From positions 32,001-96,000 of the forward strand of contig JAXGJB010000002.1 in assembly GCA_040770465.1 (NCBI GenBank): a DNA stretch of 64,000 nucleotides, read 5' to 3'. Positions 15,228 to 18,482 of the stretch are shown here, one piece after another. Positions within the stretch are counted from its first letter, which is position 1. Every line of letters begins with the position of its first letter. Below the pieces are notes generated by a model that saw only the letters and a program-made list of their open reading frames with translations, searched no databases and was not told the DNA's origin. Position numbers and translations under genes: made by a program. The DNA is from Methanothrix sp. (GTDB lineage: Archaea; Halobacteriota; Methanosarcinia; Methanotrichales; Methanotrichaceae).

Positions 15228-16346
15228 TTATTTGAACCGTTTGACGAAGGACTTGTCGATCCAGCTCTTGAAGGTGTAGATGATCCTCTTGGGGATGGGG
15301 ACGCAGAGGTCGCCGTAGATCCCGACGGCGCAGCCGCATCCCGTAGTGATCAGGGCAACGGGGCTATCGGTGGACGCCCTGATCGAGTACGGTTTCAGAT
15401 CCTCCCCCTTAGCGACCCTCGCCAGGTTCCTTGCGGTGTGCTTCGCCTGGATCTCCGCCTCCATCCCGGTCTTGGTGGCGAGCTTCCCGTCGATCTCTAT
15501 CCAGGCGCAGTCTCCGATGGCGAAGACGTTCTCGCAGCCCAGAACTCTGAGGTACTGGTCGCATAAGAGCCAGCCGCTTCTCTTCGGGAGGTCCATGCTC
15601 TCGATGATGGGGGCGGGCCTGATCCCCGCCGTCCAGATCGTCATCTCGCAGTCCAGGGCGGTGCCATCGGCGAAGGTGACGCCGTCGTCTCGGATCGATT
15701 CGACCCGTCTGTTCGTCAGGACCTCGACGCCCTTTCCCTTCAGGATCTCGTCCATCAGGATCGAGGCGTTCTTTGAGAGGGTTGGGAGGAGACGGTCCAT
15801 CATCTCGACGACGTATATCGTGCAGTCCGCGTTCTCCGCCAAAAAGCAGGCAGTCTCGATGCCGGTTGGGCCCGACCCGATGATAGCGATCTTCTTCGGG
15901 CGTTTCTTCTCGACGAACCGCCTCGCTTTGACCGTATCCTCCAGGGTGTTGATGGAGAAGGCCTTCTCTGCCCCCTCGACCCCGAAGTAGTTCTGGACCG
16001 CGCCGGGGGCGAGGACGAGGATGTCGTAATCGAGATCGTTCTCTTCGCAGACAACCCTTCTGTCGGCGAAGTCGATCCTGAGGGCCCGGTCCCTGACGTG
16101 GACAGCGTTCATCTTCATGCAAAAGGGTTCCAGGGGGGCGGTCATGTCCTTAATCTCGATTTTTCCTCCGAGGTAGTCGGGGTAGAGGGCCTGACACTCG
16201 ATCCTCTCCTTCGGCTCGACGAGGACCAGGTCCGTCCCCCACTTGGTGGCGGCATTTCTCACCAGCTCTGCGCCGCCTACGCCTCCGCCGATCACCACCA
16301 CTCGCAAGAGGTCGCTCTTCCGCAAATCCATCTGCCGCATCTCCAC
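15228..16346 (-). CDS. NAD(P)/FAD-dependent oxidoreductase (NDH-2/SQR-like)
   Basis: Two Rossmann motifs VVIGGGVGG and IIGSGPTGIE, YDILVLAPG, VFAIGDCA. Confidence 0.85.
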   Translation of the reverse strand: MEMRQMDLRKSDLLRVVVIGGGVGGAELVRNAATKWGTDLVLVEPKERIECQALYPDYLGGKIEIKDMTAPLEPFCMKMNAVHVRDRALRIDFADRRVVCEENDLDYDILVLAPGAVQNYFGVEGAEKAFSINTLEDTVKARRFVEKKRPKKIAIIGSGPTGIETACFLAENADCTIYVVEMMDRLLPTLSKNASILMDEILKGKGVEVLTNRRVESIRDDGVTFADGTALDCEMTIWTAGIRPAPIIESMDLPKRSGWLLCDQYLRVLGCENVFAIGDCAWIEIDGKLATKTGMEAEIQAKHTARNLARVAKGEDLKPYSIRASTDSPVALITTGCGCAVGIYGDLCVPIPKRIIYTFKSWIDKSFVKRFK

Positions 16347-16599
16347 CTCAAACCCGACTTTATCCTGCAGTCATCGGTCATAAGGTCTTCGATGAGCTGG
16401 TTGCGATCAAGGGACGATCCCTTTGCCGTCACCGTATCTTGCAGGGCTGGCGGCACAGCCCGCCCGAACACGAATCTATCTACGCATATTTTTCTTTTGT
16501 CATCTTTACTCTTTGACGCAACTCATAACATTATTCGAATCTATAACAGATAACTATTTAAGATAGCACCTCCAATTGGACCAAAGGAGGTGAGATTCC

Positions 16600-16692
16600 A
16601 TGAGCCTGAGAGTCAAGATCGCCTTGCTCAATGCATTGCTATATCTTATTATGGCTTCTCCTGCCCTTGCCATCGTTGTAGTTAAGAGATGA
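16600..16692 (+). CDS. 30-aa small hydrophobic protein MSLRVKIALLNALLYLIMASPALAIVVVKR (not in ORF track)
   Basis: Perfect GGAGGTGA RBS 6 nt before ATG, TATA-like TATTTAAG near 16555, T-rich tract downstream. Confidence 0.7.
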   Translation: MSLRVKIALLNALLYLIMASPALAIVVVKR

Positions 16693-16827
16693 GATGTACT
16701 GTGGGTTGCTCGCTAAACCACCAATTTCTCTATTTTATTCTAAAACTTTGTATCAACCACACAGACAAAAACTTGTATTTTATGGGGCAATGTCTGTTGT
16801 AAAAAAAATCCCCCCCACCCTTTCAAC

Positions 16828-17247
16828 TCATAATCTTCTGCGGATGATCGAGAAGGAAGCCGAGGTCTGAGAGAGGACCGGCCCGTCGGCCGAGTCCGCC
16901 GTCACCCTCCCTTCGGCGAAGGCGACCTGCCGTCCCACCTTTGCGACCCTCCCGCGGGCGACGACCTTTCCATCCCGGGCACCCTGGAAGAAGGTGGTGG
17001 TCTCCGATATCGTCGCGATCCTGTCCTCATCGTCGAGGGCGGTGAAGAGGGCGAGGGCCATCGCCTCGTCGGCGAGGGCGGTGTAGATCCCCCCTTGCAT
17101 CCACCCCGCGCCGTTTTGCATATCGGGCCTCACCACCATCTGAAGCTCAGCCTCTCCGTCGCCGAAACCGACGACCTCGATCTCCATCAGTTTGAAGAAG
17201 GGGTTCGCCTCCCTACCCCTCTTTCGAATCTCTCCGAGGTAGCTCAT
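16828..17247 (-). CDS. PaaI family thioesterase (hotdog fold)
   Basis: NGAGWMQGG..ALADEAM, VAKVGRQVAFAEG; ATG at 17247. Confidence 0.9.
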   Translation of the reverse strand: MSYLGEIRKRGREANPFFKLMEIEVVGFGDGEAELQMVVRPDMQNGAGWMQGGIYTALADEAMALALFTALDDEDRIATISETTTFFQGARDGKVVARGRVAKVGRQVAFAEGRVTADSADGPVLSQTSASFSIIRRRL

Positions 17248-17390
17248 CTTATCGTCTCCACCATCAAGACCGGTATGTAAAAGCCTTTTGGGGGGCGTCC
17301 GTTCGAGAACGTCTCCGAGACGAAAAGGGCCCATTCGATACCGTCTTCGATACCAAAAAGTGATATCCGTTCGGGTTGAAGGATCTCGTC

Positions 17391-18482
17391 ATGGCAGGGA
17401 ACACCTTTGGCACCATCTTCAGGATCACCACCTGGGGCGAGAGCCACGGCCGGGGGGTCGGGGTCGTCGTCGACGGCTGCCCTGCGGGGCTCGCCCTCTC
17501 TGAGGAAGTCGTCCAGGGAGAGCTGGACCGGAGGAGGCCGGGGCAGAGTTCGATCTCGACCCAGCGAAAGGAGGAGGATAGAGTCGAGATCCTCAGCGGC
17601 ACCTTCGAAGGGGTGACGACGGGAACTCCGATCTCGATGCTCGTCTGGAACAGGGACGCGAGATCGAGCGCCTACGACTCCTTCCGAGACCGGCCTCGTC
17701 CTGGCCACGCCGACCTGACCTACCTCTCCCGGTACGGGGTCCGGGACCACCGGGGCGGTGGAAGGGCTTCGGCGAGGGAGACCGTCGGGCGGGTTGCCGC
17801 TGGAGCCGTCGCCAAGAAGCTTCTGGCCGAGAGCGGGATTTTGGTCGTCGGCTACGTCCTTGAGCTCGGCGGCGTCCGGGCGGATCTTCCCGAGGACCTC
17901 GATTTATCAGCCCTGAGGGAGGCGGCCGAGAAGAACCCCGTCCGCTGCCCCGACCAGTCCGCTGCAGCGAAGATGGTCAGGGCCGCCGAGGCGGCCCGTG
18001 AGGCTGGAGACAGCCTCGGCGGGGTCGCCGAGATCGTGGCCGTGGGCGTCCCCGCGGGGCTGGGGGAGCCGGTCTTCGATAAGCTCGACGCGGACCTTGC
18101 CCGCGCCCTCATGGGGATCGGGGCGGTCAAGGCCGTCGAGATCGGGGCGGGGGTCGAGGCGGCCCGGATGCGCGGAAGCGAGATGAACGACCCCATCCTC
18201 CCGGGGCCGGAGGGTCCGAGGTTTGAGACCAACAACGCCGGCGGAATTCTCGGCGGGATATCGACGGGAGCGCCGATAATCTGCAGGATCTCGGTGAAGC
18301 CCACCCCCTCCATCTCGCGCCTCCAGAGGACGGTTGAGATCTCGACGGGCGAGGCCGCCGAGATCGAGATCACGGGGAGGCACGACCCCGTGATACCCCC
18401 ACGGATCGTCCCCGTGGCGGAGGCGATGGTGGCCCTCGTCCTCGCAGACCACCTTCTGAGGCTCCGGTCCGCCAGGATCTGA
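17391..18482 (+). CDS. aroC: Chorismate synthase
   Basis: [39 protein letters not shown]. Confidence 0.97.

What the first reader, a model, noticed from the sequence alone, without database searches (positions are those of the whole stretch)
16545..16745. Stand-alone 30-aa gene that reads as signal peptide + hexapeptide (candidate secreted peptide signal or type I toxin)
Seen: within an AT-rich pocket (about 16480-16810) there is a TATA-like TATTTAAG, a palindrome TCCAATTGGA (16571-16580), a perfect GGAGGTGA RBS and ORF 16600-16692 MSLRVKIALLNALLYLIMASPALAIVVVKR, then a weak hairpin and T tract. Established: basic n-region, hydrophobic h-region and A-x-A (ASPALA) make a textbook signal peptidase I substrate. 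Inference: cleavage would release only IVVVKR, the architecture of Phr-type/short hydrophobic peptide pheromones, which I do not know to be described in methanogens. Alternatively it is a single-TM protein with a basic tail, like type I toxins or small regulatory membrane proteins.
Basis: partly seen in the sequence, partly recalled or inferred. Interest (0 to 1): 0.7.

Follow-up and report, generated by a model that had tools for sequence, protein, structure and literature searches.

The report
Conserved 30-residue signal-peptide-like archaeal mini-gene
A tiny but genuinely conserved gene in a methane-producing archaeon encodes what looks like an export signal followed by only six more residues, so it is either the precursor of a very short secreted peptide or a miniature membrane protein, of a family nobody has described.

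Summary
The ORF at 16600-16692 (+), its GGAGGTGA ribosome-binding site, its TATA-like box and the AT-rich pocket are all there. It is a real protein-coding gene. Full-length homologues occur in 9 of 105 genomes of the order (Methanotrichaceae), with dN/dS 0.05-0.37 at saturated dS and variable columns 15/11/27 by codon position. They end after 30 or 33 codons, so the gene is not a stub.

A profile of the first 24 residues also finds mini-ORFs in 7 genomes of one genus of a second family. These keep the leader, ending in a small-x-Ala motif, but carry unrelated tails of 3-12 residues such as SYKIYW, GGDNWGG and MFLKLEYS. Similarity between paralogue DNAs ends at that junction. The profile's weak hits are true signal peptides of 150-240-residue secreted proteins.

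No neighbour is conserved, and the promoter-to-terminator unit sits at different loci. There is no Pfam, NCBIfam, Rfam, plasmid or virus match.

- **Best reading (0.4):** an exported pre-peptide cleaved after Ala24.
- **Main rival (0.3):** an uncleaved single-pass micro-protein.
- **Type I-toxin-like (0.12):** not excluded.

Expression, export and cleavage are all untested.

The parts
16519..16562 (+). Conserved upstream block ending in the TATA-like box TATTTAAG (16555-16562); putative archaeal promoter of the mini-gene
   Evidence: sequence. AACTATTTA[AG]GAT is shared by G000, G005, G007 and metagenome contigs L078-L083; the 80 nt upstream are 0.58-0.80 identical between species, against 0.46-0.53 for the 120 nt downstream. 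Promoter function is inferred, not shown.
16571..16580 (.). 10-nt palindrome TCCAATTGGA between the TATA-like box and the ribosome-binding site
   Evidence: Present in the window. Not conserved in G005 or G007. It shrinks to CCAATTGG in the near-identical contig L078. Probably not an essential element.
16586..16593 (+). Shine-Dalgarno sequence GGAGGTGA, 6 nt before the ATG
   Evidence: GGAGG(T/C)GA is conserved 6-7 nt upstream of the start in all 9 genomic homologues and in the divergent paralogues. In the own genome, 86 of 350 GGAGGTGA sites have a start codon 3-9 nt downstream. 16 of those 86 head ORFs of 21-50 codons, and this one is the most hydrophobic of the 16.
16600..16671 (+). Codons 1-24: leader MSLRVKIALLNALLYLIMASPALA. 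It has a basic n-region, a hydrophobic h-region, and a c-region with Pro at -4 and Ala at -3 and -1.
   Evidence: alignments: K6, Y15 and A24 invariant in 16 of 16 leaders; weak hits of an early full-length profile (A2, 3 sequences) are N-terminal signal peptides of real 150-240-residue secreted proteins, aligned through their cleavage regions. Cleavage itself is inferred.
16672..16692 (+). Codons 25-30 (IVVVKR) plus the TGA stop: the short tail, candidate released peptide
   Evidence: The tail is [IV]V[VI]VKR in all 9 genomes, with synonymous codon changes. It is followed by a stop or by 3 more residues (ITF, FTL, LTF, FVF). In paralogues of a second family it is replaced by unrelated tails.
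16725..16741 (+). T-rich tract TTTCTCTATTTTATTCT, a possible archaeal oligo-T termination signal for the mini-gene
   Evidence: Not conserved in sequence between species. In the Methanothrix-type copies a 5-bp hairpin plus a T-run marks the 3' end of the shared unit. Function is inferred.

Best explanation
The locus is an autonomous mini transcription unit, running from a TATA-like box through a perfect Shine-Dalgarno site, 30 codons and a T-rich tract. It encodes a pre-peptide.

Residues 1-24 form a Sec-type signal or leader peptide: n-region MSLRVK, h-region IALLNALLYLIM, c-region ASPALA. Residues 25-30 (IVVVKR) are the cargo.

Proposed mechanism:
1. The 30-mer is finished before it leaves the ribosome tunnel, so it must reach the membrane after translation.
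2. The leader inserts with its N-terminus in the cytoplasm.
3. The type I signal peptidase encoded in the genome cuts after Ala24.
4. The hexapeptide is released, or at least exposed, on the outside of the cell.
5. There it acts as an extracellular factor, either a signal or an antagonist.

Shown here: the gene is under purifying selection as a protein. The leader is conserved across two archaeal families. The sequence after the small-x-Ala site is interchangeable between paralogues. The unit sits at different loci.

Inferred only: transcription, translation, membrane insertion, cleavage, release and any extracellular activity.
For: 1. **It is a real coding gene.** Pairwise dN/dS is 0.05-0.37 among the 9 Methanotrichaceae copies, and up to 0.74 with the copy from the second family, with dS mostly saturated. 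Variable columns by codon position are 15/11/27. The stop falls after codon 30 or 33 in 9 of 9 genomes and 10 of 10 metagenome contigs.

2. **The leader has signal-peptide features and they are conserved.** It has K/R at positions 4 and 6, a 12-residue h-region, Pro, Ser or Gly at -4/-5, and Ala at -1 in 16 of 16 aligned leaders. My reading gives a small residue at -3 in all but one member (G363, Asp).

3. **The mini-protein profile picks up genuine signal peptides.** Its weak hits in the same order are N-terminal signal peptides of longer proteins, for example ...LIAATPAIA|IASGET and ...VFAMPALA|ENANQ.

4. **Leader conserved, tail variable.** A profile of the 24-residue leader finds mini-ORFs at E <= 1e-4 in 18 of 392 genomes of the class. 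All have open frames of 25-93 codons (25-55 for the divergent members). Their tails are VVVVKR, SYKIYW, MFLKLEYS, RSGNVLK, GFFSIYYR, GGDNWGG, VNWGT, MYLHKY, HRA and YGNTFWGPNWGG. DNA similarity between paralogues runs from the ribosome-binding site to within about 15 nt of codon 24 and then stops.

5. **The junction tolerates an insertion.** One representative has KAYG inserted exactly between ...ALA and VVVVKR (P0007).

6. **A signal peptidase is present.** A 258-residue ORF in the own genome matches the archaeal signal peptidase I model, though below its cut-off (30 bits), and carries a ...ESGSMYP... stretch. That this stretch is the catalytic-serine motif is recalled, not tested.
Against: 1. 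No run, tool or paper here shows transcription, translation, export or cleavage. RNA contigs covered only the two neighbouring genes.

2. In the canonical form, I7-V28 is an unbroken 22-residue hydrophobic stretch with basic residues at both ends. That equally fits an uncleaved transmembrane helix.

3. The tail is the most conserved part within Methanotrichaceae. That is unlike most pheromone families. The leader (K6, Y15 invariant) is far more conserved than ordinary signal peptides, so the leader itself may be the functional part.

4. No receptor, transporter or protease gene is linked in any of the 14 loci looked at (50 neighbouring ORFs scanned against Pfam).

5. A 30-residue chain cannot be targeted co-translationally, and moving a Lys-Arg tail outward costs energy. 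Post-translational export of such short chains is not documented in archaea, to my knowledge.

6. SignalP could not be run, and the complex predictor was unavailable.
Confidence: 0.4

Rival explanations
1. It is an uncleaved single-pass membrane micro-protein. Residues 7-28 form one transmembrane helix held by K/R at both ends. The conserved face (K6, Y15, M18, P21) binds and modulates a membrane protein or complex, or membrane properties. This would resemble bacterial small membrane proteins and the M. mazei small protein sP24.
For: - The hydrophobic span is 22 residues, flanked by basic residues.
- Leader and tail are both strongly conserved within Methanotrichaceae, with invariant K6, Y15, P21, L23, A24, V26, V28, K29 and R30 in 9 of 9. 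That is more than a disposable signal peptide would need.
- The nearest Pfam-bearing clusters in the ESM Atlas are N-terminal transmembrane segments of sensor kinases (scores 0.82-0.87, a lead only).
- An archaeal precedent exists: passages of bioRxiv 10.1101/2025.10.28.685009 describe sP24, with one predicted transmembrane domain and membrane integration in a cell-free system.
Against: - In the divergent paralogues the hydrophobic stretch ends at the small-x-Ala motif after about 18 residues that include Pro or Gly. It is followed by polar or aromatic tails of very different length.
- Similarity breaks exactly at that motif, and an insertion is tolerated there (P0007). Neither is expected inside a functional helix.
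- The gene occurs in only 9 of 105 genomes of the order and has no conserved neighbour. That argues against a subunit of a core complex.
Confidence: 0.3
2. It is a type I-toxin-like selfish module. A small hydrophobic peptide damages the membrane when made, and an RNA that has not been seen keeps it in check. That would explain the patchy distribution, the different loci and the tandem or multiple copies.
For: - It is a small hydrophobic protein with charged ends.
- It is patchy: 3 of 16 genomes of the genus (own included), 9 of 105 in the order.
- The whole promoter-to-terminator unit (about 225 nt) sits at different loci in close relatives.
- One genome has 5 copies, two of them in tandem.
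- Some copies lie beside an integrase or transposases.
- These traits match the search criteria described in the abstract of PMC2887945 (search listing).
Against: - The gene is single-copy in the window's genome.
- Nothing conserved lies outside the promoter and ORF. The 120 nt downstream are at shuffle-level identity, 0.46-0.53 against 0.48.
- The mRNA shows no stable or conserved fold that would hide the ribosome-binding site (z = +0.32).
- The gene has an optimal, exposed Shine-Dalgarno site.
- There are no matches in plasmids or viral contigs.
- Type I systems are not established in archaea. No archaeal type I system stood out in the listing; that they are not established is otherwise recalled.
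Confidence: 0.12
3. It is a decaying 5' stub of a secreted-protein gene, or a chance ORF with no function.
For: The leader resembles ordinary signal peptides of the same organisms. One cluster representative reads through to 75 residues (P0003).
Against: There is purifying selection at saturated dS. The stop falls at codon 30 or 33 in 19 of 19 genomic and metagenomic copies. The ribosome-binding site is conserved. The family spans four genera of one family and one genus of another.
Confidence: 0.03
4. It is a regulatory leader peptide or upstream ORF whose translation (a run of Val codons) controls a downstream gene, like the bacterial ilv attenuators.
For: A run of Val codons at the end of a tiny ORF is reminiscent of the ilv leader peptides. 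This resemblance is recalled, not tested.
Against: No gene follows on the same strand: the next gene (16828-17334) is convergent. Downstream genes differ in every lineage. The whole peptide is conserved, not only the Val codons, and the divergent paralogues lack the Val run.
Confidence: 0.02

Closest known systems
Tiny signal-like pheromone precursors of Firmicutes: enterococcal PrgQ/iCF10 and iAD1 (22-23 residues), streptococcal SHP and ComS/XIP (17-24 residues)
   Same: These are stand-alone ORFs of about 20-35 codons with a basic N-terminus and a hydrophobic body. The active part is the last 6-9, mostly hydrophobic or aromatic, residues, and it differs between paralogues while the front part is kept. 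These details are recalled. For PMC7564271 only the search listing and the start of the abstract were seen; it states that SHP and ComS peptides are secreted, matured and re-imported, and bind Rgg or ComR.
   Different: There is no sequence similarity. Those genes sit next to their RRNPP receptor gene; no such neighbour is present here. As recalled, they are processed by Eep and exported by PptAB rather than cut at a small-x-Ala site. They are bacterial, whereas this family is archaeal and its canonical tail ends in Lys-Arg.
Bacillus Phr-type peptides (Sec signal peptide, signal peptidase I cleavage, short C-terminal active peptide)
   Same: An N-terminal Sec-type signal with an Ala-x-Ala site, and an active peptide of 5-6 residues from the extreme C-terminus (recalled).
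   Different: Phr precursors are about 40-57 residues with a pro-region and a second cleavage. They are encoded next to Rap genes (recalled). Here nothing lies between the signal and the hexapeptide, and no partner gene was found.
Bacterial type I toxins (Fst/Ldr, TisB, Ibs, DinQ and others)
   Same: Length of 19-50 residues, one hydrophobic helix with charged ends, patchy distribution and sometimes tandem copies (abstracts listed).
   Different: No antisense or partner RNA is evident. There is no conserved flank and no occluding mRNA fold. The break in conservation at a signal-peptidase-type motif is not a toxin feature.
Small membrane protein sP24 of Methanosarcina mazei (bioRxiv 10.1101/2025.10.28.685009; passages read)
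   Same: A small archaeal protein from a methanogen with one predicted transmembrane segment, encoded by its own short transcript.
   Different: Its sequence was not compared. The paper describes sP24 as specific to M. mazei strains and paired with an antisense RNA. A motif search for this family in the supplements of the M. mazei Ribo-seq study found nothing (3 of the supplementary files were not searched).
Ordinary Sec signal peptides of secreted Methanotrichaceae proteins
   Same: The same n/h/c layout and the same kind of c-region ([AT]P[AS]xA). They are found directly by the mini-protein profile.
   Different: Those are followed by 130-220 residues of mature protein. Here 6 residues follow. 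The leader is also conserved in sequence across two families, which ordinary signal peptides are not.

Membership tests
Sec-type (class 1) signal peptide / signal peptidase I substrate | Basic n-region, hydrophobic h-region of about 7-15 residues, and a c-region with a helix breaker | tested here: met
   K/R at positions 4 and 6. A 12-residue h-region. Pro, Ser or Gly at -4/-5 in the aligned leaders.
Sec-type (class 1) signal peptide / signal peptidase I substrate | Small uncharged residues at -3 and -1 of the cleavage site | tested here: met
   Ala at -1 in 16 of 16 aligned leaders. The -3 residue is A, G, S or T in all members read except G363, which has Asp.
Sec-type (class 1) signal peptide / signal peptidase I substrate | Resemblance to authentic signal peptides of the same organisms | tested here: met
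   Six of the 8 weak profile hits inspected are N-termini of longer secreted-looking ORFs, aligned through their AxA regions. The other two (G101, G014) are not.
Sec-type (class 1) signal peptide / signal peptidase I substrate | Signal peptidase I encoded in the genome | tested here: inconclusive
   One hit to TIGR02228 at 30.3 bits, below the 51.85-bit cut-off. The 258-residue ORF has a transmembrane start and an ...ESGSMYP... stretch. Reading that stretch as the catalytic motif is recalled, not tested.
Sec-type (class 1) signal peptide / signal peptidase I substrate | Actual export and cleavage | not testable with these tools
   No proteomic data. SignalP is not available. The complex predictor was unavailable.
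RRNPP-type peptide pheromone systems (Phr, SHP, PrgQ, ComS) | The precursor gene lies next to a cytoplasmic TPR-type receptor or regulator gene | tested here: not met
   50 neighbouring ORFs from 13 of the 14 loci examined were scanned against Pfam. None is a TPR, Rgg, Rap or HTH receptor, and no family recurs across lineages.
RRNPP-type peptide pheromone systems (Phr, SHP, PrgQ, ComS) | The mature peptide varies between paralogues or strains while the leader is kept | tested here: inconclusive
   Met among the paralogues of the second family. Not met within Methanotrichaceae, where the tail is invariant.
Type I toxin-antitoxin | Small hydrophobic membrane peptide | tested here: met
   30 residues with a mean Kyte-Doolittle hydropathy of 1.50.
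Type I toxin-antitoxin | Antisense or partner RNA that represses the toxin mRNA | tested here: inconclusive
   No conserved flank. No significant mRNA structure. No Rfam match. No strand-specific RNA data cover the gene.
Type I toxin-antitoxin | Toxicity on overexpression | not testable with these tools
   Needs an experiment.
Archaeosortase sorting signals (PGF-CTERM and relatives) | A signature motif, then a full transmembrane helix, then a basic cluster at the C-terminus of a larger protein | tested here: not met
   No NCBIfam hit at E <= 10. Only 5-6 hydrophobic residues follow the P-G/A-L motif. The protein has no body upstream of it.
Other signal classes (Tat, lipobox, type IV pilin-like class III) | Twin-arginine motif; lipobox Cys; [KR]-[GA] cleavage before the h-region | tested here: not met
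   By inspection of the sequence: no RR, no Cys, and K6 is followed by Ile or Ala-Leu. The motifs themselves are recalled.

The most novel reading that the evidence does not exclude
This is the first family of ribosomally made, exported short peptides in methanogenic archaea. A conserved leader directs export and cleavage. The released 3-12-residue peptides (VVVVKR in Methanotrichaceae; W/Y/G-rich variants elsewhere) act between cells as signals or antagonists in Methanothrix-dominated granules and digesters. The leader is shared between two acetate-using lineages, possibly through gene transfer.
Probability: 0.2. Interest if true: 0.85.

Novelty: new variant of a known kind. Interest (0 to 1): 0.62.

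Why it matters
Methanothrix carries out much of the acetate-to-methane conversion in digesters, sediments and rice soils, and it grows as filaments and granules. According to the introduction of PMC12642392 (passages read), quorum sensing in archaea 'remains largely unexplored'. The one methanogen case it cites is the proposed carboxy-AHLs of Methanosaeta harundinacea, and secreted peptide signals are attributed there to Gram-positive bacteria.

This family is a conserved, relocatable 30-codon gene with a leader shared across two families and interchangeable tails. It offers a concrete, synthesisable candidate (a hexapeptide) for testing whether archaea use exported peptides at all. If it turns out to be a membrane micro-protein or a toxin instead, it is still an undescribed family of archaeal small proteins. 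Routine annotation largely misses it: it matches no Pfam or NCBIfam model, and the nearest ESM Atlas clusters are unnamed.

Tried and rejected
- **Non-coding RNA.** Rfam at E <= 10 over 16000-17200 gave only a chance snoRNA-like hit at 17013-17037. There are no tRNA or tmRNA genes.
- **Promoter and terminator scan.** The sigma-70 and intrinsic-terminator scan found nothing. These are bacterial models and have little bearing on an archaeon.
- **Paralogues.** None in the own genome.
- **Protein family libraries.** No Pfam or NCBIfam family at E <= 10 for 4 family members.
- **Large word-indexed protein search.** It refuses queries under 40 residues. I used the 1.84-billion-representative search instead.
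- **Earlier findings of this scan.** None for this genome.
- **RNA evidence.** Six metatranscriptome runs hold small shares of 16000-17400. The contigs of the 4 runs I laid cover only 16000-16341 and 16948-17172, and none covers the mini-gene. This says nothing either way about expression.
- **Metagenome scan.** A 7-row alignment worked but returned only canonical members.
- **Anaerolineaceae hit.** The hit from the genome-contig scan (L047) lies inside a long frame without a start and is chance.
- **Mobile elements.** No relatives in viral contigs or plasmids.
- **M. mazei Ribo-seq supplements.** Six family motifs found only unrelated long proteins. 3 files were not searched.
- **Weak leader-profile hits.** Seven of the 9 genomes whose best hit had E 0.008-0.04 were inspected. 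The hits lack a start or ribosome-binding site, or lie inside longer frames, and were dropped as chance.
- **Flanking direct repeat.** CAACTCATAA at 16519 and 16824 is about what chance gives in 500 AT-rich bases. I do not take it as a target-site duplication.
- **Reverse-strand ORF.** The ORF at 16554-16673 is rejected because the third positions of the + frame carry the variation.
Full report
**1. What is at the site**

- TATTTAAG at 16555-16562
- the palindrome TCCAATTGGA at 16571-16580
- GGAGGTGA at 16586-16593
- ATG at 16600
- a 30-codon ORF ending with TGA at 16690-16692, encoding MSLRVKIALLNALLYLIMASPALAIVVVKR

The ORF lies in a 481-nt spacer (16347-16827) between two minus-strand genes. 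One is a pyridine-nucleotide-disulphide oxidoreductase (15228-16346). The other is a 4HBT-type thioesterase (16828-17334). A chorismate synthase gene follows at 17376.

The spacer has GC 0.36-0.44, against 0.55-0.70 around it. Nothing in Rfam matches it and it holds no tRNA. A T-rich tract at 16725-16741 could serve as an archaeal terminator; that is inference.

**2. It is a real protein-coding gene**

A DNA search of 40 relatives found the ORF in two same-genus genomes, G005 and G007, at 76-77% identity.

A protein profile then found full-length matches in 9 of 105 genomes of the order, at E 2e-20 to 1e-10. The next best hit was 4e-4. The 9 genomes fall in four genera:

| Genus | Genomes with the gene |
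|---|---|
| g1 (own genus) | G000, G005, G007 |
| g2 | G071, G072, G095, G102 |
| g23 | G051 |
| g4 | G018 |

Record titles of the matching public contigs name Methanothrix sp. and Methanotrichaceae archaeon.

The same profile found 9 cluster representatives among 1.84 billion proteins, 5 of them at E <= 1e-10. A metagenome scan found 10 contigs.

Among the 9 Methanotrichaceae coding sequences, pairwise dN/dS is 0.05-0.37 wherever dS could be computed, and dS is mostly saturated. With the one copy from the second family it reaches 0.74. Variable alignment columns number 15, 11 and 27 at codon positions 1, 2 and 3.

All 9 have GGAGG(T/C)GA 6-7 nt before the ATG. The stop comes after codon 30 or after three further residues (ITF, FTL, LTF, FVF, FTF) in 19 of 19 genomic and metagenomic copies. 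The 'stub of a longer gene' refutation therefore fails.

Of the nine library representatives:
- one reads through to 75 residues (P0003);
- one is an upstream-extended gene call (P0002);
- one joins two tandem units into a single 67-residue frame (P0009).

In the own genome the gene is single-copy. Of 350 GGAGGTGA sites, 86 have a start codon 3-9 nt downstream. 16 of those 86 head ORFs of 21-50 codons, and this ORF is the most hydrophobic of the 16.

**3. Leader conserved, tail interchangeable**

Within Methanotrichaceae the consensus is MSLKVKIALxTALLYLxMAAPGLAVVVVKR. The last eight residues are the most conserved part.

I then built a profile of residues 1-24 only, from 16 leaders. K6, Y15 and A24 are invariant in it. 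I searched 392 genomes of the class with it.

At E <= 1e-4 it hit 18 genomes. Eleven are Methanotrichaceae. Seven belong to one genus (g15) of a second family, which I infer, but did not show, to be Methanosarcinaceae. Every such hit is a mini-ORF with a ribosome-binding site, in an open frame of 25-93 codons (25-55 for the divergent members).

The leaders all end in a small-x-Ala motif. What follows is unrelated between copies:

- **G374 (five copies):** VVVVKR, SYKIYW, MFLKLEYS, RSGNVLK and GFFSIYYR. The first two are in tandem, 182 nt apart start to start. The second of them starts with CTG.
- **G372 and G366:** GGDNWGG.
- **G345:** VNWGT, with a GTG start.
- **G365:** MYLHKY. No standard start codon is apparent.
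- **G363:** HRA.
- **G043:** YGNTFWGPNWGG.

From the protein library, P0007 has KAYG inserted exactly between ...ALA and VVVVKR. P0009 is two tandem units read through as one, with tails SVPWILKRWIS and YWGKGRWL.

BLASTN between the paralogue loci aligns from about 20 nt before the start to within about 15 nt of codon 24, and no further.

Seven of the 9 genomes whose best hit had E 0.008-0.04 were inspected and dropped as chance. Outside the class, nothing was found at E <= 1e-3 in the roughly 330 genomes of other families in an evenly drawn sample of 401 from the phylum.

**4. The leader looks like the organisms' own signal peptides**

The weak hits of the first profile (E 0.003-0.14) are mostly the N-termini of 150-240-residue ORFs. 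Examples are MKIANFLVMLFLIAATPAIA|IASGET......LAFLVFAMPALA|ENANQ... and ...LLISLATPASA|IAIGK....

These are ordinary secretory signal peptides, and the mini-protein's ...APALA aligns with their cleavage regions. This is my substitute for SignalP, which I could not run.

The genome encodes a candidate enzyme. One hit to the archaeal signal peptidase I model scores 30 bits, below its cut-off. It lies in a 258-residue ORF with an N-terminal hydrophobic segment and an ...ESGSMYP... stretch. Reading that stretch as the catalytic-serine motif is recalled, not tested.

**5. Context and mobility**

No neighbour is shared between lineages. I scanned 50 flanking ORFs, from 13 of the 14 loci examined, against Pfam. 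Next to the mini-gene they include:

- chorismate synthase
- Mch cyclohydrolase
- PcrB
- malic enzyme
- a family-B DNA polymerase
- peptidase M3
- acylphosphatase-domain proteins
- a pentapeptide-repeat protein
- a phage-type integrase

One Rce1-like protease lies 2 kb away in a single locus. Some g15 copies lie by transposase-like ORFs and secreted repeat proteins (those labels are my reading of the translations, not a scan).

In a same-genus genome (G011) the oxidoreductase and thioesterase genes are adjacent, with only about 125 nt between them and no mini-gene. G007 carries the gene at a different locus.

Among the Methanothrix-type copies, G095 and G072 share flanks. G071's similarity begins at the TATA-like box and ends at a short hairpin plus T-run about 65 nt after the stop, a unit of roughly 225 nt.

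Between species of the own genus, identity falls away outside the promoter and ORF:

| Segment | Identity between species |
|---|---|
| ORF | 0.79-0.84 |
| 80 nt upstream | 0.58-0.80 |
| 120 nt downstream | 0.46-0.53 (shuffled: 0.48) |

So what is conserved, and what differs in location between genomes, is a minimal promoter-to-terminator gene and nothing else. It was not found in plasmids or viral contigs.

**6. How it most likely works**

The pattern is a conserved leader, an invariant Ala at the junction, an abrupt loss of similarity there, tolerance of an insertion there, and tails of 3-12 residues. This is what secreted-peptide precursors look like. I cannot easily explain it for a helix that must stay intact in the membrane.

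I therefore put the pre-peptide reading first, at 0.4. In that reading the chain inserts into the membrane after translation, is cut after Ala24, and releases IVVVKR outside the cell. What the peptide then does is open; a signal or an antagonist is equally possible.

Against it:
- nothing shows export or cleavage;
- the canonical form is also a textbook 22-residue span with basic ends;
- the tail is invariant within Methanotrichaceae;
- the leader is much better conserved than a disposable signal;
- no receptor or transporter gene is linked;
- post-translational export of a 30-mer is not documented in archaea, to my knowledge.

An uncleaved membrane micro-protein (0.3) explains the conservation of the canonical form. 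It does not explain the paralogue pattern.

A type I-toxin-like module (0.12) explains the patchiness, the different loci and the tandem copies. It lacks any sign of a partner RNA, of an occluded ribosome-binding site or of conserved flanks.

A stub or chance ORF (0.03) and a regulatory leader peptide (0.02) are contradicted by the data above.

**7. Comparison with what is known**

Functionally the closest things are the tiny signal-like pheromone precursors of Firmicutes (PrgQ/iCF10, iAD1, SHP, ComS) and the Phr peptides. These comparisons are recalled. For PMC7564271 only the listing and the start of the abstract were seen.

This family is not a member of any of them. There is no sequence similarity and no adjacent receptor gene, and it lies in a different domain of life.

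It also fails the tests for archaeosortase C-terminal signals, and for Tat, lipobox and pilin-type signals.

Among archaeal small proteins, M. mazei sP24 is a described small membrane protein (passages read). I did not compare sequences. A motif search in the M. mazei Ribo-seq supplements found no family member (3 files were not searched).

**8. Novelty**

- No Pfam or NCBIfam family matches.
- The ESM Atlas holds the sequence only among unnamed 30-33-residue clusters.
- Four full-text searches returned no paper describing such a gene. [quoted passage not shown]
- PMC12642392 (passages read) says quorum sensing in archaea remains largely unexplored and cites only carboxy-AHLs for Methanosaeta harundinacea.

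I class it as a new variant of a known kind (short exported-peptide precursors, or small membrane proteins) in a domain where that kind has not been described.

**9. Limits**

- Expression is not shown. The RNA contigs laid did not cover the gene.
- SignalP and transmembrane predictors were not available.
- The large word-indexed protein search does not accept 30-residue queries.
The 9-of-105 figure is therefore a lower bound.
- The genomes of the order in 1-2 contigs (G001, G006, G054, G075, G093) gave no real match (weak hits at E >= 0.05 only; none at E <= 0.001). Cultured strains may therefore lack the gene; that these genomes are cultured strains is my inference.

Noticed in passing
window 16347-16397 (just upstream of the oxidoreductase gene, minus strand): About 50 nt, including the invariant GTCATCGGTCATAAGGTCTTCGAT, are conserved in several same-genus genomes, including ones that lack the mini-gene. 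This is probably the promoter, 5' leader or a regulator site of the oxidoreductase gene. The listed GTG start at 16346 is probably too far upstream; an ATG preceded by GAGGTGGAG fits better.
   Followed up: partly
window 16016-16341: Metatranscriptome contigs from three runs of one study cover the 5' part of the oxidoreductase gene. Two of them end at 16337-16341, close to its start codon. This hints at a very short 5' UTR. Depth is low and these are contigs only.
   Followed up: no
window 16519-16528 and 16824-16833: A perfect 10-nt direct repeat, CAACTCATAA, brackets the mini-gene cassette. The second copy overlaps the thioesterase stop codon. It is about what chance allows. The left copy coincides with the point where similarity to G007 begins.
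   Followed up: partly
L076, L077, L063 (other genomes: G374 and G363), about 110-190 nt downstream of the mini-genes, and also upstream in two of them: A repeat of about 70 nt flanks mini-gene copies in the second family, in the same orientation on both sides in G363 and in G374 contig 108. It may be a repeated intergenic element or the remains of tandem units.
   Followed up: no
L039 1053-1295 (-), genome G374: Directly after the tandem pair of mini-genes lies an 81-residue ORF with its own signal-peptide-like start (MESIKIKKVLAILLVVLFLVTVTAGAVNA...), so this is a small cluster of secretory-looking small genes.
   Followed up: no
own genome, contig C13 around 25396 (+), outside the window: A 41-codon ORF behind a perfect GGAGGTGA encodes a His/Cys-rich peptide (MCCHTGDKHIHSHEHEGKVHTHEHVHDAEHHKHTHKCCHSH). 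It is a candidate small metal-binding protein.
   Followed up: no
many genomes of genus g2, e.g. G071:C23:23597-23638 and G093:C1:1902940-1902975: The first profile gave a recurrent weak hit (profile positions 12-23, E about 0.2-0.3) with one in-frame TAG or TAA in dozens of genomes. This is probably a conserved non-coding or other-frame sequence unrelated to the family. I did not look at it.
   Followed up: no
L018 (G044) 1495-1608: A family-like frame (..KKVKIALSAALLILMMAAPGLVAAGAKRIKPENKIW) has no start codon and begins right after the TAA stop of a 102-residue ORF. It may be a decayed copy or a coupled or read-through arrangement.
   Followed up: no
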